Shown here in pieces: positions 1,289 through 59,280 of a stretch of DNA of 64,000 bases (position 1 is the first letter of the stretch; every line of letters starts with the position of its first letter). Below the pieces are notes generated by a model. That model was not told the origin of the DNA. It did no database searches and worked only from the letters and a program-made list of their open reading frames with translations. The DNA comes from Mustelus asterias (lineage: Eukaryota): assembly GCF_964213995.1 (NCBI RefSeq), contig NC_135828.1, positions 30,504,001-30,568,000 on the forward strand, read 5' to 3'. The translations under genes and the position numbers were made by a program.

Positions 1289-1334
1289 ATGGCATGGTCT
1301 GTTTATCTATGTCCACTGCAGTTGCTGCTACCAG
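1289..1334 (+). pseudogene. TRBV: Leader exon of TRBV pseudogene
   Basis: 46 nt, MAWSVYLCPLQLLLP + G|GTGAC phase-1 donor. Same length and GCATC-ATG context as the leader at 6711. Confidence 0.8.
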
Positions 1335-3057
1335 GTGACGGTTAATACTTATAGGGGAATTTACCTTCCAATTTAATGGTTATTGGCAACATCAGTGCAC
1401 ATTGCTGAACTGATATTTCTATCGGTGAGATCAGTTAGAGCATTGATTACTCTTTTGCCAAATAATATAAGTTTCTATTATGGAAATCGACGCAGTTACG
1501 TTCTATAACAGTAACTTGCATTAATACACGAAAGCAAAATATATGCAAGACAAATGTCGGACAGTTTGGGAGTAGACATAATTATAATGTTCCTTGGGAG
1601 CCTATGTGGGCACAGTTACAACCTCAGTAAGTCGAGTCAGGAAGTCTCTCTATATTTTTTTATGGCTCCAGTGCATCTCTCGCGAAACAGGGTTAGTAGC
1701 GTGGAATATGGAAACCCGGTAAGTTTTTGTATTCAACGGAAATATGCATTGATACCAAAAGCATCGACACATCGCCATTAATGTCAAGATATGGAGACAC
1801 TGTGTGTCCAGACCTTACCGTCCTCTTGCGTGCCTCATGGCGATGATCAGCTGAGACCTTGTGAGATTTAACAAAAACTTTCTCCCTACCCTTAATGTGC
1901 AAGTTCAAATTTGATCTGTTTCTCATGTTCCTCTGTGGCCACTGGTTGGATTGTTCCGGTCTCCCAGTGGGCGAAGCGATTGTCTATTATAGAGAGGAAG
2001 ACCGCAGAAATGTGCTTTTACCAGAATGACACCAGCGAGGCCTACAAATTCTGGTATCGGCAACGCAAAAGAGCAGGATTGCAGCTCATAGTCCCTCTCA
2101 GACCACACCTGAAGGCAGCTTCACTGATATAATTCAAGTTCAGTAAGAAGTTTAACAACACCAGGTTAAAGTCCAACAGGTTTATTTGGTAGCAAAAGCC
2201 ACACAAGCTTTCGAGGCTCTGAGCCCCTTCTTCAGGTGAGTGGGAATTCTGTTCACAAACAGAACTTATAAAGACACAGACTCAATTTACATGAATAATG
2301 GTTGGAATGCGAATACTTACAACTAATCCAGTCTTTAAGAAACAAAACAATGGGAGTGGAGAGAGCATCAAGACAGGCTAAAAAGATGTGTATTGTCTCC
2401 AGACAAGACAGCCAGTGAAACTCTGCAGGTCCACGCAACTGTGGGAGTTACAAATAGTGTGACATCAACCCAATATCCCGGTTGAGGCCGTCCTTGTGTG
2501 TGCGGAACTTGGCTATCAGTTTCTGCTCAGCGACTCTGCGCTGTCGTGTGTCGCGAAGGCCGCCTTGGAGAACGCTTACCCGAATATCAGAGGCCGAATG
2601 CCCGTGACCGCTGAAGTGCTCCCCAACAGGAAGAGAACAGTCTTGCCTGGTGATTGTCGAGCGGTGTTCATTCATCCGTTGTCGCAGCGTCTGCATAGTT
2701 TCCCCAATGTACCATGCCTCGGGACATCCTTTCTTGCAGCGTATCAGGTAGACAACGTTGGCCGAGTTGCAAGAGTATGTACCGTGTACCTGGTGGATGG
2801 TGTTCTCACGTGAGATGATGGCATCTGTGTCGATGATCCGGCACGTCTTGCAGAGGTTGCTGTGGCAGGGTTGTGTGGTGTCTTGGTCACTGTTCTCCTG
2901 AAGGCTGGGTAGTTTGCTGCGGACAATGGTCTGTTTGAGGTTGTGCGGTTGTTTGAAGGCAAGAAGTGGGGGTGTGGGGATGGCCTTGGCGAGATGTTCG
3001 TCTTCATCAATGACATGTTGAAGGCTCCGGAGGAGATGCCGTAGCTACGGCATCTCC

Positions 3058-4813
3058 AATATAAAGAGGGGATCTTATTGAAGCATTGAACCAATATTTC
3101 TCTTCGGTGTTCACGCAAGGGGACATGAATATAGCTGAGGAGGACACTGGGTTGCAAGGGAGTAGAATAGACAGTATTACAGTTGATAAGGAGGATGTGC
3201 AGGATATTCTGGAGGGTCTGAAAATAGATAAATCCCCTGGTCCGGATGGGATTTATCCAAGGATTCTCTGGGAGGCAAGAGAAGTGATTGCAGAGCCTCT
3301 GGCTCTGATCTTCAGGTCGTCGTTGGCCTCTGGTATAGTACCAGAAGATTGGAGGTTAGCGAATGTTGTCCCATTGTTTAAGAAGGGGAACAGAGACTTC
3401 CCCGGGAATTATAGACCGGTGAGTCTCACTTCTGTTGTCGGCAAGATGTTGGAAAAAATTATAAGGGATAGGATTTATAGTTATTTGGAGAGTAATGAAT
3501 TGATAGGTGATAGTCAGCATGGTTTTGTGGCAGGTAGGTCGTGCCTTACTAACCTTATTGAGTTTTTTGAGAAAGTGACCAAGGAGGTGGATGGGGGCAA
3601 GGCAGTGGACGTGGTATATATGGATTTTAGTAAGGCGTTTGATAAGGTTCACCATGGTAGGCTTCTGCAGAAAATGCAGATGTATGGGATTGGGGGTGAT
3701 CTAGGAAATTGGATCAGGAATTGGCTAGCGGATAGGAAACAGAGGGTGGTGGTTGATAGTAAATATTCATCATGGAGTGCGGTTACAAGTGGTGTACCTC
3801 AGGGATCTGTTTTGGGGCCACTGCTGTTTGTAATATTTATTAATGATCTGGATGAGGGTATAGTTGGGTGGATTAGCAAATTTGCTGATGACACCAAAGT
3901 CGGTGGTGTGGTAGACAGTGAGGAAGGGTGTCGTAGTTTGCAGGAAGACTTAGACAGGTTGCAAAGTTGGGCCGAGAGGTGGCGGATGGAGTTTAATGCG
4001 GAGAAGTGTGAGGTAATTCACTTTGGTAGGAATAACAGATGTGTTGAGTATAGGGCTAACGGGAGGACTTTGAATAGTGTGGAGGAGCAGAGGGATCTAG
4101 GTGTATGTGTGCATAGATCCCTGAAAGTTGGGAATCAAGTAGATAAGGTTGTTAAGAAGGCATATGGTGTCTTGGCGTTTATTGGTAGGGGGATTGAATT
4201 TAGGAGTCGTAGCGTTATGTTGCAACTGTACACAACTCTGGTGCGGCCGCACTTGGAGTACTGTGTGCAGTTCTGGTCCCCACATTACAGGAAGGATGTG
4301 GAGGCTTTGGAAAGGGTGCAGAGGAGGTTTACCAGGATGTTGCCTGGTATGGAGGGGAGATCCTATGAGGAGAGGCTGAGGGATTTGGGATTGTTTTCGC
4401 TGGAAAGGCGGCGGCTAAGAGGGGATCTTATTGAAACATATAAGATGATTAGAGGTTTAGATAGGGTGGATAGTGATAGCCTTTTTCCTCTGATGGAGAA
4501 ATCCAGCACGAGGGGGCATGGCTTTAAATTGAGGGGGGGTAGTTATAGAACCGATGTCAGGGGTAGGTTCTTTACCCAGAGGGTGGTGAGGGATTGGAAT
4601 GCCCTGCCAGCATCAGTAGTAAATGCGCCTAGTTTGGGGGCGTTTAAGAGATCCGTAGATAGGTTCATGGACGAAAAGAAATTGGTTTAGGTTGGAGGGT
4701 CACAGTTTTTTTTTTTTTATTTATTTATTTTTTTTAACTGGTCGGTGCAACATCGTGGGCCGAAGGGCCTGTTCTGCGCTGTAATGTTCTATGTTCTATG
4801 TTCTATGTTCTAT
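3058..4813 (+). mobile_element. 5'-truncated CR1-type LINE nested in the Penelope element
   Basis: Uninterrupted RT ORF, 3' GGGCCGAAGGGCC stem-loop and (TTCTATG)n tail. Confidence 0.92.
3086..4690 (+). CDS. CR1 LINE ORF2 reverse transcriptase (5'-truncated, open)
   Basis: KSPGPDG, NYRPVSLTS, QHGF, DFSKAFD, GVPQGSVLGP, FADD motifs; 534 aa with no stops. Confidence 0.9.
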   Translation: MNQYFSSVFTQGDMNIAEEDTGLQGSRIDSITVDKEDVQDILEGLKIDKSPGPDGIYPRILWEAREVIAEPLALIFRSSLASGIVPEDWRLANVVPLFKKGNRDFPGNYRPVSLTSVVGKMLEKIIRDRIYSYLESNELIGDSQHGFVAGRSCLTNLIEFFEKVTKEVDGGKAVDVVYMDFSKAFDKVHHGRLLQKMQMYGIGGDLGNWIRNWLADRKQRVVVDSKYSSWSAVTSGVPQGSVLGPLLFVIFINDLDEGIVGWISKFADDTKVGGVVDSEEGCRSLQEDLDRLQSWAERWRMEFNAEKCEVIHFGRNNRCVEYRANGRTLNSVEEQRDLGVCVHRSLKVGNQVDKVVKKAYGVLAFIGRGIEFRSRSVMLQLYTTLVRPHLEYCVQFWSPHYRKDVEALERVQRRFTRMLPGMEGRSYEERLRDLGLFSLERRRLRGDLIETYKMIRGLDRVDSDSLFPLMEKSSTRGHGFKLRGGSYRTDVRGRFFTQRVVRDWNALPASVVNAPSLGAFKRSVDRFMDEKKLV

Positions 4814-4980
4814 GACTTTAACCTGGTGTTGTTAAACGTCTTACTGTGTTTACCCCAGTCCAACGCCGGCATCTCCACATCATAATTCAAGTTAGCAGAA
4901 CCGAGTTCATGGATTGCAGTCTGAAAATACAACGCATGGAGCCGACTGGCACGGCTGTTTATTAATGCCCTGTTAGTGAC

Positions 4981-5019
4981 GACAATGGCTTTAACAGTTG
5001 CCGGACTGGGTCAATAACA
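4981..5019 (+). promoter_or_regulatory. Defective 23-RSS of the TRBV pseudogene
   Basis: GACAATG (essential CAC mutated), 23-bp spacer, TCAATAACA. Confidence 0.75.
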
Positions 5020-5729: not shown

Positions 5730-5889
5730 CAATCTGCTTCCACCAGCCCTTCAGGAAATCTGCTCCAGATCTTAAATGGTCAATTATTTAAAGAGGAAAG
5801 GTATCTTCAGCCGCCGGTCTGTTGCTCTTTTATGGATCTACTTTAATATTATCCCCTGTTGTCAATGGATTCTGTTTCTAAGCCTTACT

Positions 5890-6710: not shown

Positions 6711-6756
6711 ATGCGTCGTACTCTTTTCATACACTTACTGTTGCTGCTGCTCCCAG
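6711..6756 (+). CDS. TRBV: TRBV leader exon
   Basis: MRRTLFIHLLLLLLP + G|GTTAG. Phase 1 splices in frame to the acceptor CTACAG|7165. Confidence 0.9.
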
Positions 6757-7164: not shown

Positions 7165-7466
7165 TTGGTTGCAGGAGCACTGTCGTCTCTCAGTGGCCGA
7201 CCCATTTGTCCCTTGAAAAGGAGAAGATTGCGGAGATGCACTGTTACCAGAACGATACCAGCGAGACCTACATGAACTGGTACCGTCAGAAGGTCGGAGC
7301 GGGTTTGCAACTGATAGTTGCCTCGGTTCTCGGCTCCAATGGCACGACTGAGGATGGTTTCTCAGAGAGGTTTCAAGCCACCAGACCCTCTGTTAAATCC
7401 TGCAGCCTGAAAATATTGAGCGTGGATCAGACCGATACTGCAGTTTATTACTGCGCTGCTAGTGGT
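7165..7466 (+). CDS. TRBV: T-cell receptor beta variable segment, V exon (intact)
   Basis: VSQWP..EMHCYQNDTSETYMNWYRQKVGAGLQLI..RF..SCSLKI..DTAVYYCAAS, with both canonical Cys and the Trp, followed directly by an RSS. Confidence 0.95.
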
Positions 7467-7505
7467 CACAGTGATCGAAAGGGGTGTAGGGCTGTATCAA
7501 AAACT
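7467..7505 (+). promoter_or_regulatory. 23-RSS of TRBV
   Basis: CACAGTG, 23-bp spacer, TCAAAAACT. Confidence 0.95.
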
Positions 7506-23322: not shown

Positions 23323-23350
23323 TCTTTTTGTATGAGATGATATCACCGTG
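23323..23350 (+). promoter_or_regulatory. 5' 12-RSS of TRBD
   Basis: TCTTTTTGT, 12-bp spacer, CACCGTG. Confidence 0.92.
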
Positions 23351-23362
23351 GGACAGGGGGGA
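23351..23362 (+). CDS. TRBD: T-cell receptor beta diversity segment
   Basis: GGACAGGGGGGA, near the pan-vertebrate D-beta GGGACAGGGGGC. Open in three frames (GQGG / DRG / TGG) and flanked by 12- and 23-RSS. Confidence 0.95.
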
Positions 23363-23401
23363 CACTGTGATATAATCCAAAGCAGCCGCTGTACAAAAAC
23401 C
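23363..23401 (+). promoter_or_regulatory. 3' 23-RSS of TRBD
   Basis: CACTGTG, 23-bp spacer, ACAAAAACC (perfect nonamer). Confidence 0.95.
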
Positions 23402-23847: not shown

Positions 23848-23895
23848 CTGCAACAACAGCCTTCTTCGGGACTGGCACCAAACTCACCGTATTAG
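23848..23895 (+). CDS. TRBJ: TRBJ segment (J1)
   Basis: ATTAFFGTGTKLTVL + G|GTAAG. 12-RSS GGTTGATGT-12-TGACGTG at 23820-23847. Confidence 0.92.
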   Translation: MQQQPSSGLAPNSPY

Positions 23896-24501: not shown

Positions 24502-24549
24502 CTGCAGACGTGAACTACTTTGGTCAAGGCACCAAATTAACAATTCTGG
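24502..24549 (+). CDS. TRBJ: TRBJ segment (J2)
   Basis: ADVNYFGQGTKLTIL + G|GTGAG. 12-RSS TATTTTGAG-12-CACCGTG at 24474-24501. Confidence 0.93.
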
Positions 24550-25455: not shown

Positions 25456-25505
25456 TAACAACAGAGAAGCATACTTCGGAAGTGGGACGAAACTGGTCGT
25501 ATTGG
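25456..25505 (+). CDS. TRBJ: TRBJ segment (J3)
   Basis: NNREAYFGSGTKLVVL + G|GTAAG. Heptamer GGCTGTG at 25449-55; weak nonamer AATTTAATG. Confidence 0.92.
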
Positions 25506-26099: not shown

Positions 26100-26149
26100 T
26101 ACCAACAGCCAAGCATACTTCGGAGCTGGGACCAAACTGGCCGTTGTAG
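26100..26149 (+). CDS. TRBJ: TRBJ segment (J4)
   Basis: TNSQAYFGAGTKLAVV + G|GTAAG. 12-RSS AATTTTGTG-12-CGCTGTG at 26072-26099. Confidence 0.93.
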
Positions 26150-27013: not shown

Positions 27014-27063
27014 CTCTGCTAATGCTTACTACTTCGGGTCTGGGACTGAGTTGACTGTTGTCG
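27014..27063 (+). CDS. TRBJ: TRBJ segment (J5)
   Basis: SANAYYFGSGTELTVV + G|GTAAG. 12-RSS GATTTTAAT-12-CTATGTG at 26986-27013. Confidence 0.9.
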
Positions 27064-29876
27064 GTAAGTTTGCTTATGGAGATCCATGAGAATGTAAACC
27101 TTTGGACTTATCGATATTATTTTGCCCATCTATCTACTTATTGATTGACTTATCTGTCTGTTCATGTACCTATGTAAATAGGTGGTTGCTTGCCAATGTT
27201 GTGTCCTGGTACTGCTGTTTGGTGAGGCGCGGCAGGGCTCAACCAACTGTTGCATTTTGCAGAAGGGTCTAGACTAAATGTTTTGAGTGAGTGACATTTT
27301 TATTCATGGGGAAGGGAGACCACGAAATCTATGAGAGCAGTAAAGAAATATAAATTAACATACCGAAACATAACTGAGGAACAAAGCTCAGTGGAGCATA
27401 CGGAAGAGTAGAGAGAAAAACAGATGTAGACGGACAGAGATAGAACCAAAATAACACAAAAATGCATGTAAAATTATTAACGGAGTTGTAGCAACGTTCA
27501 GGATAAAACAAAAATTAGAGGGGAGGTGCGGTGGGATAATGAGCCAAACACAGCGCACATTGATTCGACTGCACGGATTAACATTTGTGTAGAACATGCA
27601 TTTTATCTCAATGCTGTGAGAAACTGCGAGGAAATCAGTAAAAAAAAACCCAATTGTTCGAAATTCGTGGATTTAGTTTAGTAACGAACATAGTTTGAAC
27701 AATACGTTTTTCCTGATGGCCGATCAGATAATATGGGAATTGAAAGTTGCAGAACTGGAATGCCGATGTCTTCCGATAGGTCAAAGAACAAAGAGAACAA
27801 AGAACAATAATTTGGATAATTGGAACACTTTCTGGGGAAGGTGGCACCTGTACCAACAGGATAGGGTGCACCTGAACCAGAGGGGCACCAATATCCTGGG
27901 AGGGAAATTTGCTACAGCTCTTCGGGGGGGGGGCGGGGGGGGTTAAACTAATTTGTCAGGGGGATGGGAAAATGAGTTGTAGTCCGGAGGTCAGTGAGTG
28001 TAGTGAGGTACTGGGAAGGGTATCATGGTCAAAGGTGGGTACCAGCAGGCAAGAAGGTGGGTTGAAGTGTATCTACTTCAATGCAAGGAGCATCCAAAAT
28101 AAGGTAGGTGAACTTGGGGCGTGAATTGGCACTTGGGACTACGATGTTGTGGCCATTACGGAGACATGGGTAGAACAAGGACAGGAATGGTTGTTGAAAG
28201 TTCCGGGGTATAGATGTTTCAGTAAGTGTAGGGTAGCTGGTAAAAGAGGTGGAGGAGTGGCACTGTTAATCAAGGAGAGTGTAACGGCTGCAGAAAGGTA
28301 TTTCGAAGGGGATCTGCCAACAGAGGTAATATGGGCTGAGGTTAGGAATAGGAAAGGAGCGGTCACGTTGTTAGGAGTTTACTATAGGCCCCCAAATAGT
28401 AATAGAGATGTGGAGCAAGAAATTGCTAAGCAGATTATGGATAGGTGTGGAGGTCACAGGGTAGTTGTCATGGGGGACTTTAACTTTCCAAATATTGATT
28501 GAAGCCTTTATAGGTCGAATAGGTCGGACGGGGCAGTTTATGTGCAGTGTGTGCAGGAGGGGTTCCTGACACAATATGTGGATAAGCCGACAAGAGGTGG
28601 GGCCACATTGGATTTGGTAATGGGAAATTAACCGGGCCAAGTGTTGGATTTCATTGTGGGAGAGCACTTTGGAGATAGTGACCAAATTCGGTGTCTTTTG
28701 TTATTGCAATGGAGAGGGAGAGGGCCATGCGGCAGGGCATAGGTTACAATTGGGGGAGAGGTAATTATGATGCAATCAGGCGGGTATTAGGAAGCATAGG
28801 ATGGGAACAAAAATTGTCAGGGAAAGGCACTAATGAAAAGTGGAACTTTTTCAAGGAACAAATACTGCGTGTCCTTGATAGGTATGTCCCTGCCAGGCAG
28901 AGCGGAAGTGGCCGAGTGAGGGAACCATGGTTCACAAAAGAGGTGGAATGTCTTATCAAGAGGAAGAAGGAAGCGTATGTAAAGTTGAGTAAACGAGGTT
29001 CAGTTGGCTCGATGGAGGGTTACAAGTTATCAAGAAATGAGCTGAAAAAGGGGTTCAGGAGGGCTAGGACGGGGCATGAGAAGTCCTTGGCGGGTCGAAT
29101 CAAGGAAAACCCCAAGGCTTTTTACTCTTATGTGAGGAATAAAAGAATGACCAGGGTGAGGTTGGGGCTGGTCAAGGATGGCAGTGGGAATTTGTGCATG
29201 GAGTCAGAAGAGATCGGAGAGGTGATGAATGAATACTTTTCTTCGGTGTTCACCAAGGAGAGGGGCCATGTTTTTGAGGAAGTGAGGGTGTCACAGGCTG
29301 ATAGGCTGGAGGAAGTAGATGTTCGGAGGGAAGATGTACTAGCAATTTTGAATCAACTAAAAGTTGATAAGTCCCCTGGGCCTGATGTAATATATCCCAG
29401 GAGTGTTTGGGAGGCAAGGAATGAGATAGCAGAGCCTTTGGCATTGATCTTTGCGTCCTCACTGTCCACGGGGGTGGTGCCAGAGGACTGGAGAGTGGCG
29501 AATGTGGTTCCTCTGTTTAGGAAAGGGAATAGAAATGACCCTGGTAATCATAGGCCGGTTAGTCTTACTTCGGTGGTCGGTAAGTTGATGGAAAAGGTCC
29601 TCAGGGATAGGATTTACGACCATTTAGAAAGATGCAGCTTATTCCGAGATAGTCAGCACGGATTCGTGAAGGGCAAGTCTTGCCTCACAAATTTGATAGA
29701 ATTTTTTGAGGAGGTAACTCAGTATGTAGATGAAGGTAGTGCAGTTGATGTCATATATATGGATTTTAGTAAGGCGTTTGATAAAGTCCCCCATGGTCGG
29801 CTTATGAAGAAAGTAAGGATGTGTGGGATAGAGGGAAGTTTGGCCGATTGGATAGGTAACTGGCTATCTAACAGAA

Positions 29877-30122
29877 TAAGAAGTTTAACAACACCAGGTT
29901 AAGGTCCAACAGGTTTATTTGGTAGCAAAAGCCACACAAGCTTTCGAGGCTCTGAGCCCCTTCTTCAGGTGAGTGGGAATTCCCACTCACCTGAAGAAGG
30001 GGCTCAGAGCCTCGAAAGCTTGTGTGGCTTTTGCTACCAAATAAACCTGTTGGACTTTAACCTGGTGTTGTTAAACTTCTTACTGTGTTTACCCCAGTCC
30101 AACGCCGGCATCTCCACATCAT
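29877..30122 (+). mobile_element. Short palindromic Penelope insertion (inverted terminal repeat plus 40-nt tail)
   Basis: 103-bp arms 29877-29979 and 29980-30082 with no spacer. TSD ATCTAACAGAA at 29866-29876 and 30123-30133. Confidence 0.92.
29983..30027 (+). ncRNA. Minimal type-I hammerhead ribozyme-like motif in the Penelope terminal repeat
   Basis: CUGAAGA-A-stem II (GGGGCU/AGCCUC)-GAAA-GCU-U-GUG. Other copies at 2199-2243(-), 5413-5450(-), 29932-29976(-), 32974-33018(-) and 34847-34891(+). Confidence 0.7.
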
Positions 30123-31939
30123 ATCTAACAGAAGACAGAGGGTGGTGGTGGATGGAAAATTTTCGGACTGGAAACCGGTTACCACCGGAGTGCCACAGGG
30201 ATCAGTGCTTGGTCCTCTATTATTTGTAATTTTTATAAATGACTTGGATGAGGGGGCTGAAGGGTGGATCAGTAAATTTGCTGATGACACCAAGATTTGT
30301 GGAGTAGTGGATGAGGTGGAGGGCTGTTGTAGGCTGCAAAGAGATATAGATAGGATGCAGAGCTGGGCTGAAAAATGGCAAATGGAGTTTAACCCTGACA
30401 AATGCGAGGTGATTCATTTTGGTAGGACAAATTTAAATGTGGATTACAGGGTCAAAGGTAGGGTTCTGAAGAATGTGGAGGAACAGAGAGATCTTGGGCT
30501 TCATATCCATAGATCTCTGAAGGTTGCCACTCAAGTGGATAGAGCCGTGAAGAAGGCCTATAGTGTGTTAGCGTTCACGAACAGGGGGTTTGAGTTTAAG
30601 AGCCGTGGGGTTATGCTGCAACTGTACAGGACCTTGGTGAGACCACATTTGGTATATTATGTGCAGTTCTGGTCACCTCACTATAGGAAGGATGTGGAGA
30701 CACTGGAAAGAGTGCAAAGGAGATTTACCAGGATGCTGCCTGGTTTGGAGGGTAGGCCTTATGAGGAAAGGTTGAGGGAACTTGGGCTTTTCTCTTTGGA
30801 GCGGAGGAGGTTGAGAGGAGACTTGATAGAGGTTTGCAACATGATGAGGGGGATAGATAGAGTGAACGTTCAAAGACTGTTTCCTCGGGTGAATGGAGTG
30901 GTAACTAGGGGGCATAACTATAGGGTTCATGGTGGCAGATATAGGAAGAGTGTCCGAGGTAGGTTTTTTTACTGAGAGAGTGGTCGGGGTGTGGAATGGA
31001 CTGCCTGCAGTGATAGTGGAGTCAGAAACTTTCTGAACATTTACGAAGCTATTGGATAGGCACATGGAGTACTTCGGGATGATAGGGAGGAAATAGCTTG
31101 ATCTGGGTTTCAGACAAAGCTCGGCACAACATCGTGGGCCGAAGGGCCTGTTCTGTGCTGTACTGTTCTATGTTCTATGTTCTAACAGTACAGCACAGGA
31201 AAGAGGCCCTTCGGCCCTCCAAGTCTGTGCCGCTCATTGGTCCAAAGAGACCATTCGTTTGTATCCCTCCCACATGCCCAGACTGCTCATGTGACTATCC
31301 AGGTAAGTCTTAAACGATGCCAGCGTGTCTGCCTCCACTACCCTACTTGGCAGGTCATTCCAAGCCCCCACCACTCTCTGTGTAAAAAACGTCCCTCTGA
31401 TATTTGAGTTATACCTCGCCCCACTCACCTTGAGCCCGTGACCCCTCGTGATCGTCACTTCCGACCGGGGAAAAAGCTTCCCACTGTTCACCCTATCTAT
31501 ACCCTTCATAATCTTGTACACCTCTATTAGATCTCCCCTCATTCTCCGTCTTTCCAGGGAGAACAACCCCAGTTTACCCAATCTCTCCTCATAGCTAAGA
31601 CCAGGCAACATCCTGGTAAACCTTCTCTGTACTCTCTCTAAAGCCTCCATGTCCTTCTGGTAGTGTGGCGACCAGAACTGGACGCAGTACTCCAAATGTA
31701 GTCCAACCAGCGTTCTATACAGCTGCAACATCAGACTCCAGCTTTTATACTCTATACCCCATCCTATAAAGGCAAGCATACCATATGCCTTCTTCACCAC
31801 CTTCTCCACCTGTGCTGCCATCTTCAAGGATTTGTGGGCTTGCACACCTAAGTCCCTCTGTGTTTCTCTTGATGGCTCTGCCATTAATTGTATAACTCCT
31901 CCCAGCATTAGTTATTCCAAAATGCATCACTTCACATTT

Positions 31940-32604
31940 AGAACATAGAACATAGAAAAACTACAGCACAAACAGGCCCTTCGGCCCCACAAGTTGTGCC
32001 GAACATATCCCTACCTTCGAGGCCTACCTATAACCCTCCATCCTATTAAGTCCCATGTACTCATCCAGGAGTCTCTTAAAAGTCCCTATTGAGTTTGCCT
32101 CCACCACCACTGACGGCAGCCGATTCCACTCGCCCACCACCCTCTGTGTGAAAAACTTCCCCCTAACATTTCCCCTGTACCTGCCCCATAGCACCTTAAA
32201 CCTTGTCCTCTCGTAGCAGTCATTTCAACCCCGGGAAAAAGCCTCTGAGAGTCCACCCGATCTATGCCTCTCAACATCTTATATACCTCTATTATGTCTC
32301 CTCTCATCCTACGTTTCTCCAAGGAGAAAAGACCGAGCTCCCTCAGCCGATCCTCATAAGGCATGCCACTCAATCCAGGCAACATCCTTGTAAATCTCCT
32401 CTGCACCCTTTCAATCATTTCCACATCCTTCCTTTAATGGGGCGACCAGAACTGAGCACAATACTCCAAGTGGGGTCTGACGAGGGTCTTATATAGCTGC
32501 ATCATTATCCCCGGACTCCGAAACTCAATCCCTCGATTGATAAAGGCCAGCACACCATACGCCTTCTTAACCACCTCCTCCACCTGCAAGGCCGATTTTA
32601 GAGT
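31940..32604 (-). mobile_element. CR1 LINE 3' fragment (same family as 8188-13440), nested
   Basis: Very similar to 8190-8860, with its tail at 31940. Confidence 0.88.
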
Positions 32605-32880
32605 CCGGAGTAAATTCCATCTGCCATTTCTCCGCCCAATTTTCCAGACTATCTATATCCTGCTGTATTGTCCGACAATGTTCATCGCTATCCGCAAGTC
32701 CAGCCATCTTCGTGTCATCCGCAAACTTGCCGATAACACCAGTTACACCTTCTTCCAAATCATTTATATATATCACAAATAGCAGAGGTCCCAGTACAGA
32801 GCCCTGTGGAACATCGCTGGTCACAGACCTCCAGCCGGAAAAAGACCCTTCGACTGCTGCCGTCTGTCTCCTGTGGCCAA

Positions 32881-34945
32881 GATGTGGAGATGCCGGCGTT
32901 GGACTGGGGTAAACACAGTAAGAAGTTTAACAACACCAGGTTAAAGTCCAACAGGTTTATTTGGTAGCAAAAGCCACACAAGCTTTCGGAGCTCCAAGCC
33001 CCTTCTTCAGGTGAGTGGGAATTCTGTTCACAAACAGGACATATAAAGACACAGACTCAATTTACATGCATAATGGTTGGAATGCGAATACGTGTAGCTA
33101 ATCAAGTCTTTAAGATACAAACAACATGAGTGGAGAGAGCATCAAGACAGGCTAAAAAGATGTGTATTGTCTCCAGACAGGACAGCCAGTGAGACTCTGC
33201 AGGTTCAGGCAGGCTGTGGGGATTACAAATAGTGTGACATGAACCCAATATCCCGGTTGAGGCCGTCCTCGTGTGTGCGGAACTTAGCTATCAGTTTCTG
33301 CTCAGCGACTGTGCGCCATCGTGTGGCGTGAAGGCCGCTTGGAGAATGCTTGCCCGAATATCAGAGGCCTCCACTCAGAGGCTTCTCTGAGTGGAGGCCT
33401 GTGACTAGTGGTGTGCCGCAGGGATTGGTGTTGGGTCCATTGTTGTTTGTCATCTGTATCAATGATCTGGATGATAATGTGGTAAATTGGATCTGCAAGT
33501 TTGCTGATGATACAAAGATTGGAGGTGTAGTGGACAGTGAGGAAGGTTTTCAAAGCTTGCAGAGGGATTTGGACCAACTAGAAAAATGGGCTGTAAAATG
33601 GCAAATGGAATTTAACGCAGACAAGTGTGAGATATTGCACTTTGGAAGGACAAACCAAAGAAGAACGTACAGGGTAAATGGTAGGACTCTGAAGAGTGCA
33701 GTTGAACAGAGGGATCTGCGAATACAGGTGCAGAATTCCCTAAAAGTGACGTCACAGGTGGATAGGGTCGTAAAGAGTGCCTTTGGTACATTGGCCTTTA
33801 TAAATCGGAGTATCGAGTATAAAAGTTGGAGTGTTATGGTAAGGTTACATAAGGCATTGGTGAGGCCGAATTTGGTGTATTGTGTACAGTTTTGGTCACC
33901 TAGTTACAGGAAGGATGTAAATAAGATTGAAAGAGTGCAGAGAAAGTTCACAAGGATGTTGCCGGGACTTGAGAAGCTGAGTGACAGAAAGAGATTGAAT
34001 AGGTTGGGACTTTATTCCCTGGAGCGTAGAAGATTGAGGGGAGATTTGATAGAGGTGTATAAGATTTTGATGGGTATAGATAGAGTGAATGCAAGCAGGC
34101 TTTTTCCGCTGAGGCTAGGGGAGAAAAAAAACCAGAGGGCATGGGTTAAGGGTGAAAGGAGAAAAGTTTAAAGGGAATATTAGGGGGGGCTTCTTCACGC
34201 AGAGAGTGGTGGGAGTGTGGAATGAGCTGCCGGATAAAGTGGTAAATGCGGGGTCACTTTTAACATTTAAGAAAAACTTGGACGGGTTCATGGATGAGAG
34301 GGGTGTGGAGGGATATGTTCCAAGTGCAGGTCAGTGGGACTAGGCATAAAATGGTTCGGCACAGACAAGAAGGGCCAAAAGGCCTGTTTCTGAGCTGTAA
34401 TTTTCTATGGTTCTATGGTTCTATGGAATGCCCGTGACCGCTGAAGTGCACCCGAACAGGAAGTTGGGGAGCACTTCAGCATTCACGGGCATTCGGACTC
34501 TGATACTCGGGTAAGAGTTCTCCAAGGCGGCCTTCACGACAGTCGACGGCGCAGAGTCGCTGAGCAGGAACTGAGAGCCAAGTTCCGCACACATGAGGAC
34601 GGCCTCAACCGGGATAATGGGTTCATGTCACACTATTTGTAATACCCACAGCCTGCCTGGGCCTGCAGAGTTTCACTGGCTGTCCTGTCTGGAGACAATA
34701 CACATCTTTTTAGCCTGTCTTGATGCTCTCTCCACTCATGTTGTTTGTATCTTAAAGACTTGATTAGCTATAAGTATTCGCATTCCAACCATTATTCATG
34801 TAAATTGAGTCTGTGTCTTTATATGCCCTGTTTGTGAACAGAATTCCCACTCACCTGAAGAAGGGGCTTGGAGCTCCGAAAGCTTGTGTGGCTTTTGCTA
34901 CCTAATTAACTTGTTGGACTTTAACCTGGTGTTGTGAAACTTCTT
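32881..34945. mobile_element. Penelope-like element, long inverted structure (tail at left, inversion point ~34463)
   Basis: Left arm 32881-33369 plus 34426-34463; right arm 34464-34945 is its reverse complement. TSD CCTGTGGCCAA at 32870-32880 and 34946-34956. Confidence 0.9.
33370..34425 (+). mobile_element. CR1 LINE 3' fragment nested in the Penelope arm
   Basis: RT ORF 33350-34171 (GVPQG, FADD) and a (TTCTATGG)n tail. Host TCAGAGGCC|GAATGCCCG rejoins. Confidence 0.9.
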
Positions 34946-35408
34946 CCTGTGGCCAAGCCAGTTCTCTACCCATCTAGCCACCTCTCCTTGTATCCCATGA
35001 GCCTTAACCTTCTTAACCAACCTGCCATGAGGGACTTTGTCAAATCCCTTACTGAAATCCATATAGGCGACATCTCGGTCACATCCCCTCTTCAGTTCTC
35101 TGGAATTATATAGAGATACATCAGTTTCTCAAACAAAATTATAACCACATACCTTATGCCTAAATGGACTAATATTAACCGACTAGGGTATAGGAGGCTG
35201 AATAGCCTAGTCCATTTGCTGATGTTTCTGTGACGTTTCATCTTCGGCTTATTAGCAGGATTGGAGGTAGAACGTTTTTTTTTTAATCACGAAATTTTAA
35301 ATACAGTATTGTTGAGGGTTGAAAGTGCTGGGGCCAAATTGATAATGCTAGTTGCAACAGGACTTCAATCCGTCTTATGAGGTTTCCTTACAAGCGTCTC
35401 ACACTGTG

Positions 35409-35458
35409 TTCGGGGTATGAGTACTACTTCGGCAGCGGTACCAAGCTGATTGTTCTAG
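35409..35458 (+). CDS. TRBJ: TRBJ segment (J6)
   Basis: SGYEYYFGSGTKLIVL + G|GTGAG. 12-RSS GGTTTCCTT-12-CACTGTG at 35381-35408. Confidence 0.93.
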
Positions 35459-35768: not shown

Positions 35769-35821
35769 CTCTGGAAGCTATGAATATTTCATTGGAGACG
35801 GGACCAAACTAACTCTGTTGG
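35769..35821 (+). CDS. TRBJ: TRBJ segment (J7), non-canonical IGDG motif
   Basis: SGSYEYFIGDGTKLTLL + G|GTGAG. 12-RSS AGTTTTGGC-12-TACTGTG at 35741-35768. Confidence 0.88.
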
Positions 35822-39200: not shown

Positions 39201-39253
39201 GTAAAATAACTACGACGTTACGTTCGGTGACGGGACCAAAGTGTCCGTTGTCG
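39201..39253 (+). pseudogene. TRBJ: TRBJ pseudogene (J8P)
   Basis: NNYDVTFGDGTKVSVV, but the donor reads G|TTTAC and the heptamer is CATTGGG (39194-39200). Nonamer TGTTTTAAC at a 12-bp spacer. Confidence 0.8.
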
Positions 39254-41525
39254 TTTACAAGTCAAATAATTGCATTCAAGTTGCAGCGTGTAACTTCCAA
39301 TGGAAGTTGGCGTGTTTAATTAACGGATTGGCTTAATGCCAGCCTATCCCGAAAAACGATTCATGTGTTTCCAGCTCAGAGCAACATGACTACTGTTAAA
39401 ACATTTCAATAATATTCGCTTGAATAGCCTGAAGCTGCAGATTTATTATTTCTTAACCGCATTGCGAGACGTCTTCCCAATCAACGTACTTAACAATATT
39501 ATTGTGAAGTCTCTCCCTGTCCCTGGTTAACACACATACACTAATCGGAATAACCTCGAACCACTCACTTTATGGAATTCCGTAAATCCGGCTATGTTGA
39601 GATTCACAGTTCCCCTATATTGTCACGAAATTGCGCTCGAAATTTCTAAAATTCTGAGTTGAAAACGGTGTATCAAGATAAACTGCGAAATCTGAGACCT
39701 CAGTGAACAATAAGGTCTAAAGTCCTTCAGCAAAGCAGGATTGGTGTTAACTTAGTGATGGCCAAGAAGCCGAAATATTCGGGTGGGAGCAAATACAGAA
39801 GAGGGTGAGGCAGAAAAAATAAAAGAGACAAAAACAAAAATATGGTCAACTGCAAATAAGTAAAGAATAACATTCTAAAAGTATTCCAGAACAATTTTCC
39901 TCCTACTCAATTTAATGTATCCGACTTACAATTGTTCAATTTATGGGCCAACGTTGTTGAAGGATGTTGCATTAAAAATCTTCACGTCTTTTCAAATGAA
40001 TTGTGTATTGTTAATTGTCAAGACTGAAACCATTGTGGCCGATGAACTTTAGTGTTTTGGATAAAACATTTGATAATCTATTATTTGTGTTCTCCAACTG
40101 GCAAATGCACTTCAGTATTTCAGTTCTTCGGCAACAAGACAACTTAATATGTCATTTGACATGTAAAAGTTTCGACATGACAATAAAAACAAGACTGTGT
40201 TACCTAGGGAAGGATGTAATGACAGCAAATCTTGATTGATGTTGGTTGTCAGCCACACCAATAGCAAAATTCATATCAAGTGTGCAAATATTAAATTGAT
40301 TGCAGGACCAAATTAAATTTCCAATTTTGCAATGGGAGTAAGTCTCTTTTAGGGAATCAATAATCCATTATATTTAGGTTAAGCGACTAAGCCCACGGTT
40401 TTGGGTTAGTAAATGGAATGGAGATAGTTGTTTATCGCCACCTTTGGTTATGTGATTAAATGGCGGGGAAAGTGAGGGAGGTGTATCTACGGCATGGTCA
40501 ACTTTGATTTTCGTGCCAAATGCAACTGAGAACTGTTGAGAGGCAGTCATATTGTTGTGGCTCTGAAGTCAGATCAGGTTCAGGCTAGGCCAGACAAGAA
40601 TGGAAGATTTCCTTTCCTAAGGGACAATAGTACACCAGATAATTTCTGTTTTACAACAATTACTGATGATATTGAGTTCAGTTCTATATTTCCCAGAAAA
40701 CGTTTTTGAATTAACTTAATTAAATGTAAATTGTACTAGATGACGTCTCGCAAGAGCGTTTTCTCGTTCTTGTGGATCACTAATCCTGTGACATTTCACA
40801 ATAATAATACTTCCCCTCAAAACGTGATGCTTTAGACTGTTGAATGTTCTGTTGCTTCATTCAAAAGTTGGCCCTTATTTGTGGCACTCTATTGCCATTG
40901 TAATGTGAATGCTGTGATGCAGCTTGTACTTTGTAAGATACTTGGAGGATATTTGATTATTTTAAACATGCAGAGAATGCAAAGAGTTATCTAACGCCAT
41001 GTGCTTCGATGATAAAACATATTTAGTGTTTGGTTTATATGTTTGTTTTTCAGTATCTGGGGTCTTTCCATACATTTATCATGGGGAGAAAAGGGGATGG
41101 AATTAAATCCACAATACAGCAGGCTGCAAGAAATTAGCACACTTTAAACTAATAATACGGCATCTGAGCAACAAAGGAAGAAGCTGATGCCACTTAAGAT
41201 TGTTCACTCAAATTAATTTGAAATACAGTTACTTTCATTTTATTTGCACAGTATTTAATTCCATTTATCCTAAACTCAGCAAATGCCACAGTGACACAGT
41301 TGCAATCTAACTGTTGTTTATGGAAAATTTAATAGTTCATAGTGTTCTAAGTGTCCCAGTAAAGATTTTATATTAGCCATACGTTATCTGTTTTCAAGTA
41401 GCTCAATATAAAAAGTAGCACTTTCGAATCAAAGCGAAACAATGTGGACAATCCTACCGAATCAGAGATTCTTAATATTGCAATCGTTAGACCCATCAAT
41501 ATTGATAGTGTTTTCTAAAACTGTG

Positions 41526-55092: not shown

Positions 55093-57901
55093 TTTGTTCC
55101 TACTTCTTTGCCCATTCTTCTAACCTGTCCCAGTCCTTCTGCAGCCTCCCCGCCTTCTCAATACAACTGTCCCTTCACATATCTTTGTGTCATCTGAAAA
55201 TATCGCCGGACTGCCATCAATTCGTTCATCTAGATCATTGATGTAGAGAGTGAAAGTTTGTGGTCCCAAAACTGACCCCTGCGAAACTCCACTAATCACC
55301 AGCTGCAATTTTGAACTGGACATTTTCATCTCCATCCTCTGCCTTCTACTAGGAAGCCAATCATCAACTCATGCTAGTATCATGTGCTCTTATCTTGCTA
55401 AGCAGCTTCCTGTGGGCACCTTTGCCAAATATCTTCAGAAATCGAAAGGCGTAACTTCCACTGGCTCTCTTTTGTCAAAACTGCTCGTTAACTCCTCAAA
55501 TATTCTGAAAGATTTGCCGGGCATGTCCTCGCCTTGATGAAACCATGCTGACTTTGCTTTATCTTACCTCGCACTTCCAAGTGTTTTGAAATCTCATCCT
55601 TAATATCGGACTCCAAAATCGTAGCAATGACCAAGGTCATACTAACCGGTCTGTAATTTCCCGTCTTTTGTCTCCCTCCCTTCATTAATAAGGGTGTTAT
55701 ATCAATGATTTTCCAGCTCTCTGGAACCATACCTGACTGCTGTGATTCCTGAAAGATCACACCAATGCCTCCACTATCTCTTCATCTATCTCCTTCAGAA
55801 CTCTGGTGTGTGGCCCATCTGGTCCGGGTTTTTTATCCACCTTCAGACCTTTCAGCTTCTTTAACAACTTCCCCTTAGTATTGGCTAACATACCCACTTC
55901 AGCCCCATGACTCTCTTTATTTTTTTGTGTGTTACTGGTGTCTTCCATCGTTAGGACTGATGATAGTTAGCTATTCAGTTCCTCGGCCATTAAGTTGTTC
56001 TCCATTATTACTTTTCCATAATCATTTTTCAGCAGTTCAATGTCCACTCTTGCCTCTCTCTTACCATTTATATTTAAGAAAGCTACTTGTGCAATATTAT
56101 TTTATATTATTGGCTACCTTACCCTTATATTTCATCTTCTTTCCCCTTATTTGTTTTTTTTAGTTGTCTCTATTGCATTTTAAAGGCTTCCCAATCCCGT
56201 CGTTTCCCACTAATCTACGCCACATTGTTTGTTTTCTCGCTTAAATTTATGCTGTCCCTAACTTCCCTCGTCAGCCATGGTTGCCTTAGTATGCTTCTTC
56301 TTCCTTGGGATGAAATTTTTCTGTGTCTCCCGAATTACTCCAAGAAACTCCTGCCATTGCTGCTCCACCATCGTACCTGTTAGGCTCCTCTCTCAATCAA
56401 CTGCGGCCAGCCCATCCCTCATGCCTCTGCAGCTAACTTTACTTAACTTTAATCCTATTAAATCTGATTTAAGTTTCTCACTCTCAAACTGCAGGGCGAA
56501 TTGTATCATATTATGGTCACTCCCTCCTAAGAGATCCTTCACCTGATGTTGCCTAATCATGCCCACCTCATTATACATCATCAAATCCAGAACTGCCTGT
56601 TCCCTAGTGGGTAATCCCGCAATCTGCTCAAAATAGGTATTTCGTAGATGTTCCACAAATTCCTTCCATTAGGGTCCACTACCAATTGCTGTCCATCCCT
56701 AATTTCCCTACATATCTGAAGGTATTTGCGAGTCCGCAAATCATCAAACACGTGTAACTTCATCAGTGATGAAGTTACACGTGTTTAACTCCACAAATAT
56801 ACCAAACCAAAACGACATTGGCATGATGAATCGAATATGCTGCCCATAAACTGAATTAGTCCATCATTATTTTATTACAATTTGGACTCTCTTTCATGAA
56901 CAAGGTAAGATCTGAGTCAATGAGCAATAGAATCAGTATAGTACAGAAACACGTCATTTGACCCCGACAGGACATGCACACTCTCTACAGTAAACCTGAG
57001 CAGTCAATTTGCCAGCACTGCTCCCTTAGCTCTCCAAGTTAAATTACTGTTGTTTATCCAATGACCTGTAAAACATATTGATCAATTGTACTTCCAACAC
57101 ACCTGCGAGCAGCAACTACTGAATAATTAACACACCCAATATGAAAAAAGCTATTCCTCATATCTTGTCTGTAATCCTTGTGAACGTCTTAAAACTGTGT
57201 CGCCTAACTTGTGTCAATTGCCCACAGGAGTAGTATTCCTTGGCCTGCCTTAGTCAACTGCCCATTTTCCTTGTAATCATCTATAAAATATCCCTGAACC
57301 GTCTTTCCTCCAGGGATAATAATTGTAAGTTCTCCAGTGCACAGTTGCTGGTGCAATTCCTCATTCCTGGTCCCCTGCAGAATCTTAAGATCCCTCATAT
57401 CCTTTCTAAATTGAGCTCATCAAAACCAAGTGCCAAAATCAATATATTGCCTCACTCCAGTTTTGTAAAGTTTCACAATAAATTCCTTATTACAAAGGGC
57501 ACTGAAATATCTAACAGTGTGATCTGTGCTTCAGACTATTAATGGATACTTCGGCTGGGAATTCAGATAAAATATTTCTAAAAGCCTGGGGAAATTCTAG
57601 TGCAGGAGACAAAGTACACTTCATTCAGTGAGAAAGAAAATATTCTGATTGGGAACTCTCAATATTTTTTTTTACTGATGCGTCCAAAGCATTCACAATT
57701 TGCACATTGATTCGACCTGACATTAGTAACTTATTTCATGAGGACCAAACAACAGTGAGGCCTATTTTCCAATTTCCGTAGTTTTAATGTTTCTGGCGAG
57801 GATTGAGGAATATGTATAAAACATATGCTGCTTTATGTATCATTCGATGTTCATTTTCACCCATGTCATTTCAATTATTCTTTTGGTTAATTCTCACACA
57901 G

Positions 57902-58246
57902 AACATGAGATTTTATCTCCAACAATTGCTCTATTTGCGCCTTCACCCGAAGAGATTAGAGATAAAAGGAAAGCAACAGTGGTTTGCACAATCACTGACT
58001 TCTACCCGGACAACATCAGGATCTTTTGGTTTGTCGATGGCAGGCCGAAGCCAGACAACGACACAAGGGTTCAGACAGACCTCACTTCCATCGCCGGACA
58101 CGAGAACAAATCCTTTAGCATTACCACTCGGCTAAGATTTGAGGACCAAGAATGGGCCCAGTCTAAGAACGTCGAGTGCAAAGTGGAACACTATGCGAAT
58201 GGATCCGATCCCACTCAATACAGTTCAACTTTAGCCATAAATGCTG
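57902..58246 (+). CDS. TRBC: TRBC exon 1 (Ig C1 domain)
   Basis: Acceptor CACACAG, phase 1 matching all J donors. EHEILSPTIALFAPSPEEIRDKRKATVVCTITDFYPDNIRIFWFVDG..FSITTRLRF..EW..VECKVEHY, with the C-beta PS.EEI..KAT.VC signature. Donor G|GTACGT. Confidence 0.95.
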
Positions 58247-58582
58247 GTACGTCCACGCAGGACGAATATACAATTTTAATGTAACTTCAATGAAAGCAAG
58301 AACTTGCTTCCAAATCGTGCCTGTGATCTAGCAATGAATAGCAGAGTAAATTCATCGGTAACTTTATCATTCATTAACAAATCATGCAACCTAATTATTG
58401 TACAAATATATATGATTACATAGACACTTACTAGAGAGCTGCCTTATCGAAAGCACGCAAGAAGACTTTCACAACATCTAATAATGCATTGCGAATTACA
58501 GCTATTATGATCTGCATTTACAACGCAATTTCGTAAGATATTCAGCTGCCAAAAGTTTGATTTTTTTTCTCATTTGTTTCAG

Positions 58583-58603
58583 AAATCTGCGGTGCTAGTA
58601 AAG
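58583..58603 (+). CDS. TRBC: TRBC exon 2 (hinge with interchain Cys)
   Basis: Polypyrimidine TTTCAG acceptor, EICGASK, G|GTGAG donor; 21 nt, phase 1/1. Confidence 0.9.
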
Positions 58604-59173
58604 GTGAGTCTCATACTCCTTCTGTCTGCTTCCAGTCGCCACATTTGAGCAGGACTGTCCAGTTCTTCATAGACAGCAGAGGCTATTCACAAGAACGGTT
58701 CCAGGGATGTAATTTTAGCTCAGAGGTTTGGTCGCTCCTGGGATCATAGGGACTTGAGTTGAGGTGTGATGGAGGTGTACAAGACTTGAACGCGGATTCA
58801 CGGGGGTAGTGCGGTGGGGAAGGCAGTCGGGGTTAGATGGTTTTTCAGAGAGTCAGTGCAGAAGCGATGAGCCAAATAGCCTCCTTCTGAACTTTTGGGA
58901 GTCTATGTTTCGATGAAACTCTCATTATCTCTCACAGAGCCCATAGGAACAGCCGTATGCAGCACCGCTAATCATACGTTGTTGGATAAAATGTGCTCCA
59001 GTGAATATCGCCAAAATTAATTCCTTGCGTCAAGGGGCGAATTATCTGTTTTCCCACTTCGAACCTAAATCTAAGCATCTGACGTGGAAATGTTTTCCAT
59101 TGGTAAATATTGGAATTTCTTACATTCAGAGAACTAAAATATCATTTTTTAATTCATTATATCCACTCCATAG

Positions 59174-59280
59174 AAGAGAAAATGCGAAGCATGGCGACAG
59201 CAAAATTGACATATCTTATTGTGTTCTGCAAAAGCATCCTGTATGCAATATTCGTCTCAATTTTTGCTTGGAAAGCTAAG
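59174..59280 (+). CDS. TRBC: TRBC exon 3 (connecting peptide and transmembrane)
   Basis: EEKMRSMATAKLTYLIVFCKSILYAIFVSIFAWKAK|GTAAG, with the intramembrane Lys flanked by the two conserved Tyr. Confidence 0.93.

What the first reader, a model, noticed from the sequence alone, without database searches (positions are those of the whole stretch)
1289..59280. Germline V-D-J-C organisation of an elasmobranch TRB locus, mostly invisible in the ORF track
Seen: V(23-RSS), (12)D(23), seven intact (12)J plus two relics, and C exons 1-3, all phase-compatible and on one strand. The last V is only ~16 kb from D, there is a single D-J-C unit, and retroelements stretch the last intact J-to-C distance to ~22 kb. 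Established: this RSS layout is the TRB layout. Inference: translocon organisation rather than the repeated mini-clusters of shark Ig loci.
Basis: partly seen in the sequence, partly recalled or inferred. Interest (0 to 1): 0.7.

Follow-up and report, generated by a model that had tools for sequence, protein, structure and literature searches.

The report
One of several shark TCR-beta loci
This is the 3' end of a shark T-cell receptor beta gene locus whose joining and constant pieces are seen spliced together in RNA-derived contigs, but it is only one of three full-sized copies on different chromosome-sized scaffolds, with a compact and very divergent copy lying backwards just beyond it, so shark T cells likely have to choose among several beta genes instead of the one locus of mice and people.

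Summary
Exon 4 lies 5 kb past the window. The D core, the C-region tree and PDB hits make it TRB. Public contigs show J4 spliced to C and all C joints; a V-D-J junction was not seen. Translocon holds locally (14 V hits upstream). A single D-J-C unit does not hold for the genome. Two more V-D-J8-C loci sit on other chromosome-scale scaffolds (C regions 58-60% identical; one is spliced too). An inverted 1D-1J-1C unit, 32% identical and shared with catsharks and whale shark, lies 35 kb downstream, with a likely dead copy elsewhere. Two D-J-C units in one bamboo shark locus and multi-chromosome TRB in salmonids are on record; ten literature searches found no multi-chromosome shark TRB, but the key 1990s and 2010 papers were not held. 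This scan noted the compact unit and the three loci earlier on another contig (e1-8850858); I reached the same result before looking.

The parts
1289..1334 (+). Leader exon of pseudogene V1
   Evidence: ATG to phase-1 GT donor
1942..2140 (+). V1 pseudogene, 5' half (acceptor lost); start approximate
   Evidence: 51% identity to V2; no AG at the homologous acceptor
2141..4882 (.). Insertion in V1: Penelope-like element (GIY-YIG ORF, minus strand) with a nested LINE RT ORF 3065-4690
   Evidence: 11-bp target-site duplication at 2130-2140 and 4883-4893; GIY-YIG E 7e-5; RVT_1 E 1.6e-36. 'Penelope-like' is inferred from the domain
4883..4977 (+). V1 pseudogene, 3' half with in-frame stop
   Evidence: tblastn to V2 positions 69-99; translation
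6711..6756 (+). Leader exon of intact V2
   Evidence: phase-1 donor, joins in frame to the V exon
7165..7466 (+). TRBV exon V2, intact
   Evidence: V-set E 2.5e-13; same V family as nurse, whale and horn shark TCR-beta V
7467..7505 (+). V2 23-RSS
   Evidence: CACAGTG-23-TCAAAAACT
23323..23350 (-). 5' 12-RSS of D
23351..23362 (+). TRBD, 12 nt, Gly-rich, open in 3 frames; one G shorter than the D of the C22 and C24 loci
23363..23401 (+). 3' 23-RSS of D, consensus nonamer
23848..23895 (+). J1 intact
   Evidence: RSS p 0.001, GT donor
24502..24549 (+). J2 intact (13-bp spacer, as in both paralogous loci)
25456..25505 (+). J3 intact coding part, weak nonamer
   Evidence: RSS p 0.14; J profile E 3.5e-11
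26100..26149 (+). J4 intact; found spliced to C exon 1
   Evidence: loose end before C in run X5 reads J4; coordinates
27014..27063 (+). J5 intact
27225..27286 (+). J6 relic or ORF (FAEG, donor kept, no good RSS near the core); start approximate
   Evidence: E 0.0054
27800..35000 (.). Block of LINE-type retroelements splitting the J cluster; ends approximate
   Evidence: 89% multi-copy; endonuclease and RVT_1 ORFs
35409..35458 (+). J7 intact
35769..35821 (+). J8 intact RSS and donor, Ile in place of J-Phe
39201..39253 (+). J9 relic (no CAC heptamer, no donor)
   Evidence: E 7e-5
40362..40410 (+).
   Evidence: J profile E 0.0015; sequence
57902..58246 (+). TRBC exon 1 (C1-set domain)
   Evidence: Pfam C1-set E 2.4e-18; covered end to end by spliced contigs
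58583..58603 (+). TRBC exon 2 (hinge with Cys)
   Evidence: GT..AG joints in 3 runs
59174..59280 (+). TRBC exon 3 (transmembrane with Lys); spliced to exon 4 at C69:30572950, 5 kb past the window

Best explanation
The window holds the last two V genes, one D, seven intact J and the constant exons of a transcribed and spliced shark T-cell receptor beta locus, one of three full-sized beta loci on different chromosome-scale scaffolds of this genome, and RAG likely rearranges it in thymocytes in the usual beta way. Inferred steps: D joins a J by deletion (D 23-RSS with J 12-RSS); a V then joins the DJ (V 23-RSS with D 12-RSS), by deletion for the upstream V genes and by inversion for V genes lying backwards beyond C; the transcript splices over 22-34 kb of retroelement-rich intron; the chain pairs with TCR-alpha through the hinge Cys and with CD3 through the transmembrane Lys. 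Shown: segments, RSS, phases, J4-C and C-exon splicing, and the extra loci. The extra loci likely arose by whole-locus duplication and transposition, not genome doubling. This lineage (A) split from the C22/C24 lineage before smooth-hounds and catsharks parted, C22 and C24 duplicated later, and a compact divergent 1D-1J-1C unit (B) lies inverted 35 kb downstream. Each T cell would then need exclusion across loci, not only across alleles.
For: Anatomy and chance control. The whole-chain model P0001 gives TCR beta in 59 of the 60 PDB rows shown. The C region groups with catshark orthologues (97/88, 98/90) and nurse shark TCR-beta cDNA (96/89, 95/89) in two trees. Spliced joints at both C introns appear in contigs of 3 of 4 runs laid (two studies; X4 and X5 are one sample); the fourth, X2, spans the stretch unspliced; the X5 loose ends read J4 and exon 4. 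Extra loci: C domains at 55% and 51% identity on C22 (76.7 Mb) and C24 (63.0 Mb), each with D, 8 J, 4 C exons and V arrays. Exactly 3 conventional TM exons were found (3 of 3 candidates), and 4 further D cassettes with 0 in the control. C22 and C24 are collinear over about 200 kb at about 81% identity, with no collinear run outside it. Partial contigs in X1, X4 and X5 carry the mismatch counts of the C22 C gene (6 and 8; C24 would give 8 and 10), and the 0.88 agreement of the two exon-4 loose ends fits window plus a paralogue. Unit B orthologues occur in two catsharks and whale shark.
Against: No V-D-J junction was seen: the X5 contig ends with J4, and the 528 letters 5' of C in the X4 contig were not displayed. 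The runs are assembled contigs and not on record as RNA. The C domain alone retrieves mostly multi-domain Ig heavy chains from PDB (1 TCR beta row of 60), and NCBI names the gene model 'immunoglobulin lambda-1 light chain-like'. Support for TRB against IgL and TRG in the C trees is moderate (84/93; 79/95) with few outgroups. The locus shows decay: 3 J relics, 5 of 14 V hits not intact, and 1 more lacks the first Cys. No expression data were obtained for C24 or unit B. Flanking genes were found only for C24 apart from one CUB exon on C22, so the direction of duplication is open.
Confidence: 0.85

Rival explanations
1. It is the single TRB translocon of the genome, as the first reader and reviews imply; the other hits are haplotigs or dead copies.
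For: A review states that cartilaginous fish TCR genes are in translocon arrangement as in mammals (PMC6795676, section 25). The C73 copy of unit B is 97-98% identical to C69, has no intact V and has an element inserted about 40 bp after the stop, so that one may be dead or an assembly duplicate.
Against: C22 and C24 C regions are 83% identical to each other and 58-60% to the window's. They lie on scaffolds of 76.7 and 63.0 Mb, keep open frames, 8 J each and 10 and 36 intact V hits, and C22 appears in spliced contigs. Other sharks also carry more than one C lineage.
Confidence: 0.05
2. Shark TRB is organised like shark Ig, in many repeated mini-clusters, and the window is one cluster.
For: Five D-J-C units in this genome. 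Horn shark has at least 5 gene models with near-identical C on 4 scaffolds. Unit B has 1 D, 1 J, 1 C and 3 V-like genes.
Against: Three units have 8-10 J and 14-49 V hits from several V families; Ig clusters have one V and one J (PMC6795676 passage). No further TRB-like C appeared among 150 of 351 scored candidates.
Confidence: 0.05
3. The window's locus is a decaying duplicate that gives only germline J-C transcripts, and C24 is the working locus.
For: Heavy retroelement load, 3 J relics, a D one base shorter than its paralogues, and no V-D-J junction seen.
Against: All four C exons are open and spliced in two studies. Orthologous C genes are kept in catsharks (72-73% identity) and the cloned nurse shark TCR-beta cDNAs belong to this lineage. 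9 of 14 V hits have an open frame and a good 23-RSS.
Confidence: 0.04
4. The locus is TRD/NAR-TCR or an Ig light chain locus, as the automated name says.
For: NCBI name; Ig-rich PDB list for the C domain alone; TRD shares the RSS layout (recalled).
Against: A D segment and a TM exon exclude a light chain; the D has the G-rich TRB core (consensus recalled, matched by the paralogues); nearest named relatives are shark TCR-beta; 59 of 60 PDB rows for the whole chain are TCR beta.
Confidence: 0.01

Closest known systems
Brown-banded bamboo shark TRB locus (Giorgetti et al. 2023, PMC10322711, Supplementary Table 3; part 1 of the table read)
   Same: Germline shark TRB with V genes on both strands and D-J7-C units; two units in opposite orientation; V to D distances of 9-40 kb
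   Different: There both units (35 V, 2 D, 14 J, 2 C) lie within 450 kb of one scaffold. Here three full units lie on three chromosome-scale scaffolds, and a divergent 1D-1J-1C unit is added, which that table does not list
Salmonid TRB loci (PMC10464911, passages read)
   Same: Several V(n)-D-J(k)-C loci, pairs in opposite orientation, on more than one chromosome; exclusion across loci raised there as an open question
   Different: Attributed to the salmonid genome duplication. Here C22/C24 homology stops at the locus edges and the C lineages differ far more (32-83% identity)
Squamate TRE / TCR-epsilon (PMC11754216, passages read)
   Same: Unit B has the same compact plan (few V, 1 D, 1 J, 1 C, 23/12-23/12 RSS) and is a divergent TRB derivative
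   Different: TRE is squamate-specific and lies at a separate site; unit B sits tail to tail with a conventional TRB unit in sharks. Orthology was not tested (no TRE sequence in my trees)
Nurse shark and horn shark TCR-beta cDNAs (P0005, P0006, P0019, P0022, P0007)
   Same: Same exon content, TM motif and tail; the nurse shark cDNAs fall in the window's C lineage
   Different: cDNA only. A 1990s report of several horn shark TCR-beta clusters is recalled, not read (not held)
Mammalian TRB translocon (recalled; mouse rows seen)
   Same: RSS layout, G-rich D core, four C exons, inverted V beyond C
   Different: One locus with tandem D-J-C units; trypsinogen, MOXD2 and EPHB6 neighbours (recalled) were not found near any of the shark loci

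Membership tests
TRB locus | V-23RSS, 12-D-23, 12-J on one strand | tested here: met
   shared with TRD (recalled), so not sufficient alone
TRB locus | Conserved G-rich D-beta core, open in all frames | tested here: met
   one 5' G shorter than C22/C24; reference consensus recalled
TRB locus | Four C exons: C1-set domain, hinge Cys, TM with Lys, short tail | tested here: met
   exon 4 lies outside the window
TRB locus | Chain closest to TCR-beta, not IgL or TRG | tested here: met
   59 of 60 PDB rows for the whole chain; named shark TCR-beta relatives; trees. The C domain alone is uninformative in PDB
TRB locus | J-C spliced transcripts | tested here: met
   J4-C, exon 1-2-3-4 joints in contigs; runs not on record as RNA
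TRB locus | Somatically rearranged V-D-J junctions using this D | tested here: inconclusive
   contigs stop or are not displayed 5' of J; the junction in the NCBI model P0001 matches a sawfish model and is not taken as evidence
TRB locus | Pairing with TCR-alpha and CD3 at the cell surface | not testable with these tools
   inferred from hinge Cys and TM Lys
Single-locus translocon (mammalian type) | Many V share one or a few D-J-C | tested here: met
   14 V hits upstream, none in the 96 kb beyond them
Single-locus translocon (mammalian type) | One locus per haploid genome | tested here: not met
   three full loci and two compact units
Single-locus translocon (mammalian type) | Trypsinogen, MOXD2, EPHB6 neighbours (recalled) | tested here: inconclusive
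   no hit near the loci: Eph 17 matches, DOMON 6, trypsin 150 of 378 candidates scored
Shark Ig-type mini-cluster | One V, few D, one J per C, repeated many times | tested here: not met
   10 J and 14 V hits for the window's C; only unit B comes near this plan
Squamate TRE-like extra chain (unit B, outside the window) | Compact V-D-J-C derived from TRB, intact and rearranged | tested here: inconclusive
   intact D, J, four C exons and 1 intact V exon of 3; V leader not located; no RNA laid on it

The most novel reading that the evidence does not exclude
Sharks run several independent TCR-beta loci on different chromosomes without a genome doubling, and have kept since at least the catshark-whale shark split a second, very divergent beta-type chain made from one D and one J. 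That chain would mark a narrow-repertoire T-cell lineage, a shark counterpart of squamate TCR-epsilon, and could borrow this window's V genes by inversion.
Probability: 0.3. Interest if true: 0.78.

Novelty: new variant of a known kind. Interest (0 to 1): 0.5.

Why it matters
The window alone is an ordinary TRB 3' end that automated annotation misnames as Ig lambda. The genome context matters more. Reviews treat shark TCR loci as mammal-like translocons in contrast to clustered shark Ig. Three dispersed full beta loci plus an old compact unit put shark TRB between the two plans. This raises a testable question on how one beta chain per T cell is chosen among six or more alleles. The C genes differ enough (32-83% identity) for locus-specific primers, so single-cell or 5'RACE tests are direct. 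Repertoire studies primed on one C would miss the other loci.

Tried and rejected
(1) X/Y idea for the C69/C73 shared block: rejected. Nramp exons map to C75 and C14, not C69, and no homeodomain cluster lies at the distal ends of C69 or C73 (150 of 400 candidates scored); X markers taken from passages. (2) Tetrapod synteny (Eph, DOMON, trypsin): nothing near the loci. (3) Pfam scans of flank ORFs: C69, only retroelement domains and one Myb/SANT domain (144 ORFs; 37 of the 113); C22, one CUB exon and one weak env-like hit among 136; the direction of duplication stays open. (4) A strict CTCF core pattern gave no hit in the window or within 200 bp behind any V. (5) The first D pattern was too narrow and found only the window's D, with 1 control match; the wider one found the other four. 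(6) PDB search with the C domains alone is dominated by multi-domain Ig chains. (7) No RNA holder is on record for the stretch; contig depth was not used to rank loci. (8) The NCBI model junction was not used as proof of rearrangement. (9) In the first C tree two Xenopus IgL rows were cut wrongly; the second tree replaced them, and the row I labelled IgL_P0042 turned out to be a teleost TRB. (10) The minus-strand RSS-like hit at 24771-24810 and the 213-codon ORF over J1 have no J or Pfam match and are taken as chance. (11) A word search of earlier findings gave nothing. (12) No structure or complex prediction was run; it would not change the reading.
Full report
What is in the window. The window is G000:C69:30504001-30568000, on a 31.6-Mb scaffold of a 3.68-Gb genome. 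A public gene model on a contig of the same length carries the window's C region and the label 'immunoglobulin lambda-1 light chain-like [Mustelus asterias]'. All segments are on the + strand: pseudogene V1 (leader 1289-1334; V exon split by a 2.7-kb insertion with an 11-bp target-site duplication, acceptor lost, one stop), intact V2 (6711-6756, 7165-7466, 23-RSS), a 12-nt D between a 12-RSS and a 23-RSS (23351-23362), seven J with CAC heptamer and phase-1 donor, and C exons 57902-58246, 58583-58603 and 59174-59280. J8 has Ile for the J-Phe and J3 a weak nonamer. J motifs with a phase-1 donor number 8 against a mean of 0.02 in 100 dinucleotide-matched random sequences. Exon 4 lies at C69:30572950, 5 kb past the window.

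Distances. V2 RSS to D RSS is 15.8 kb. J8 to C is 22.1 kb, against 7.3 and 10.8 kb in the two paralogous loci; D to J8 is 12.5 kb against 4.8 kb.

Identity. The RSS layout alone does not separate TRB from TRD (recalled). The D core, the four-exon C with hinge Cys and TM Lys, and homology do. The whole-chain model gives TCR beta in 59 of 60 PDB rows shown. The best named relatives are shark TCR-beta chains. In two trees the C region groups with catshark orthologues and nurse shark TCR-beta cDNA. Against this, the C domain alone retrieves mostly multi-domain Ig heavy chains, the automated name is Ig lambda, and outgroups were few.

Expression. Five runs hold the stretch, none on record as RNA. 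Four were laid on 57700-59500. Contigs of X1, X4 and X5 (two studies; X4 and X5 one sample) skip both C introns at the predicted GT..AG sites. X2 spans the stretch unspliced and may be this DNA's source. In X5 the loose end before C is J4 and the one after exon 3 is exon 4. No V-D-J junction was displayed, so rearrangement of this D is inferred.

The C domain finds itself, two domains at 55% and 51% on C22 and C24, and two at 34% and 33% on C69 and C73; the rest are 29-41%, and the five of them that I translated look Ig-like (150 of 351 candidates scored). I fetched 1.4 Mb around these sites. C22 (76.7 Mb) and C24 (63.0 Mb) each hold a 13-nt D with 12/23 RSS, eight J, four open C exons and V genes on both sides of C. 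V hits with an open frame and good 23-RSS: 10 of 18 on C22, 36 of 49 on C24, 9 of 14 upstream of the window's D; leaders were not checked and some hits are split genes. The TM exon finds exactly these three loci (3 of 3 candidates). A D-cassette pattern finds four sites besides the window's, with 0 in the control. C22 and C24 are collinear over about 200 kb at about 81% identity, with no collinear run outside it. Their C regions are 83% identical to each other and 58-60% to the window's. Partial contigs in X1, X4 and X5 show 6 and 8 mismatches over two window stretches, the counts of the C22 gene (C24: 8 and 10). In X5 the TM contig stops at the exon end, and the two exon-4 loose ends agree at 0.88, as window plus a paralogue would. 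So C22 is likely transcribed and spliced too.

Unit B. On the minus strand 35 kb past the window lies a unit with one 15-nt D, one J, four C exons and three V-like genes, one with an intact exon and RSS. Its C region is 32-37% identical to the other three and 71-73% to catshark proteins; whale shark has one at 56%. In the cloudy catshark the A and B models are consecutive on one contig. B forms its own clade (99/100) whose place among TRB is unresolved. C73 carries a 97-98% identical copy of B and its distal flank, without an intact V and with an element inserted about 40 bp after the stop; it may be a recent dead duplicate or an assembly duplicate. An X/Y reading was tested and rejected.

Other sharks. 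Whale shark has two conventional C lineages on different contigs, cloudy catshark two, and horn shark at least five models with near-identical C on four scaffolds. These are automated models from assemblies of mixed quality.

Mechanism. Shown: segments, signals, phases, splicing, extra loci. Inferred: D to J and V to DJ joining by RAG under the 12/23 rule; inversion for V genes beyond C and for any sharing between units A and B; pairing with TCR-alpha and CD3; origin of the extra loci by locus-sized duplication. C24 has exons of an ACTMAP-like gene, YIF1 and a phospholipase A2 on one side and a GPCR on the other; flanking genes of the other loci were not established.

Comparison with print. 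A review says cartilaginous fish TCR genes are in translocon arrangement (PMC6795676, section read). The bamboo shark TRB table lists two D-J7-C units in opposite orientation on one scaffold, and five units for bichir (PMC10322711, Supplementary Table 3, part 1 of 5 read). Salmonids have three or four loci on two chromosomes after genome duplication (PMC10464911, passages). Squamates have a compact TRB-derived TRE locus (PMC11754216, passages). Passages of PMC12227049, PMC5931798, PMC13433984 and 10.1101/685743 did not describe shark TRB germline layout. Ten searches listed no paper on multi-chromosome shark TRB or on unit B. Three look-ups for the 1994 and 2010 shark TCR papers failed, and I recall a 1990s suggestion of several horn shark TCR-beta clusters, so part of this may be in print.

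Verdict. The single-unit inference is wrong at genome level. The window is an ordinary TRB 3' end; the dispersed multi-locus layout with an old compact unit is a new variant of a known kind. Interest 0.5.

Noticed in passing
L015 / G000:C69:30593750-30607500 (minus strand, 26-40 kb past the window): Compact divergent TRB-type unit (1 D, 1 J, 4 C exons), tail to tail with the window's unit. The TM exon has no GT where the catshark models end it; a GT 6 bases further on or a nearby in-frame stop would be used.
   Followed up: partly
L074-L088 / G000:C73:7056912-7191635: About 135 kb collinear with C69:30593708-30718289 at about 98%, with many element indels, starting just past unit B's stop codon; recent duplicate or assembly duplicate.
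   Followed up: partly
L032-L051, L112-L131 / G000:C24:52.55-52.84 Mb: Largest TRB locus (49 V hits). A + strand V array is followed by mostly minus-strand V at 52.61-52.65 Mb with no D-J-C facing them; the layout recalls the bamboo shark locus with one inverted D-J-C unit missing (speculative).
   Followed up: partly
L112-L117, L130 / G000:C24:52.47-52.53 and 52.858 Mb: Flanking exons of an ACTMAP-like gene, YIF1, a phospholipase A2 and a single-exon rhodopsin-family GPCR; ACTMAP and YIF1B are on human 19q13 (recalled).
   Followed up: no
window 2141-4882: V1 was broken by a Penelope-like element (GIY-YIG) that itself holds a nested LINE; the same element family sits at the C73 breakpoint and many times in the region.
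   Followed up: partly
window 24474-24554 and 26073-26155; C22 and C24 J2: 13-bp RSS spacers: J2 has one in all three loci, and J4, which has one, is the J seen spliced to C.
   Followed up: partly
window 12081-12824 (minus strand): SGNH/GDSL esterase-like ORF upstream of a LINE ORF2, as in CR1-type ORF1 (family link recalled).
   Followed up: no
L104:1398-6232 / G000:C69:30395400-30400300: LTR retroelement with zinc knuckle, protease, RT, RNase H and integrase ORFs, 20 kb before the first V; observed only.
   Followed up: no
G000:C75:3.66-3.82 Mb: Two Nramp gene copies near a homeobox; C75 is a candidate for the X chromosome by the marker list.
   Followed up: no
P0001, P0014, P0016, P0021, P0025: Shark TCR-beta gene models are often named Ig lambda or kappa light chain-like by automated annotation.
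   Followed up: yes
P0007, P0008, P0011, P0013, P0075, P0076: Horn shark has several near-identical TRBC models on separate scaffolds, which suggests a recent multiplication of the locus.
   Followed up: partly
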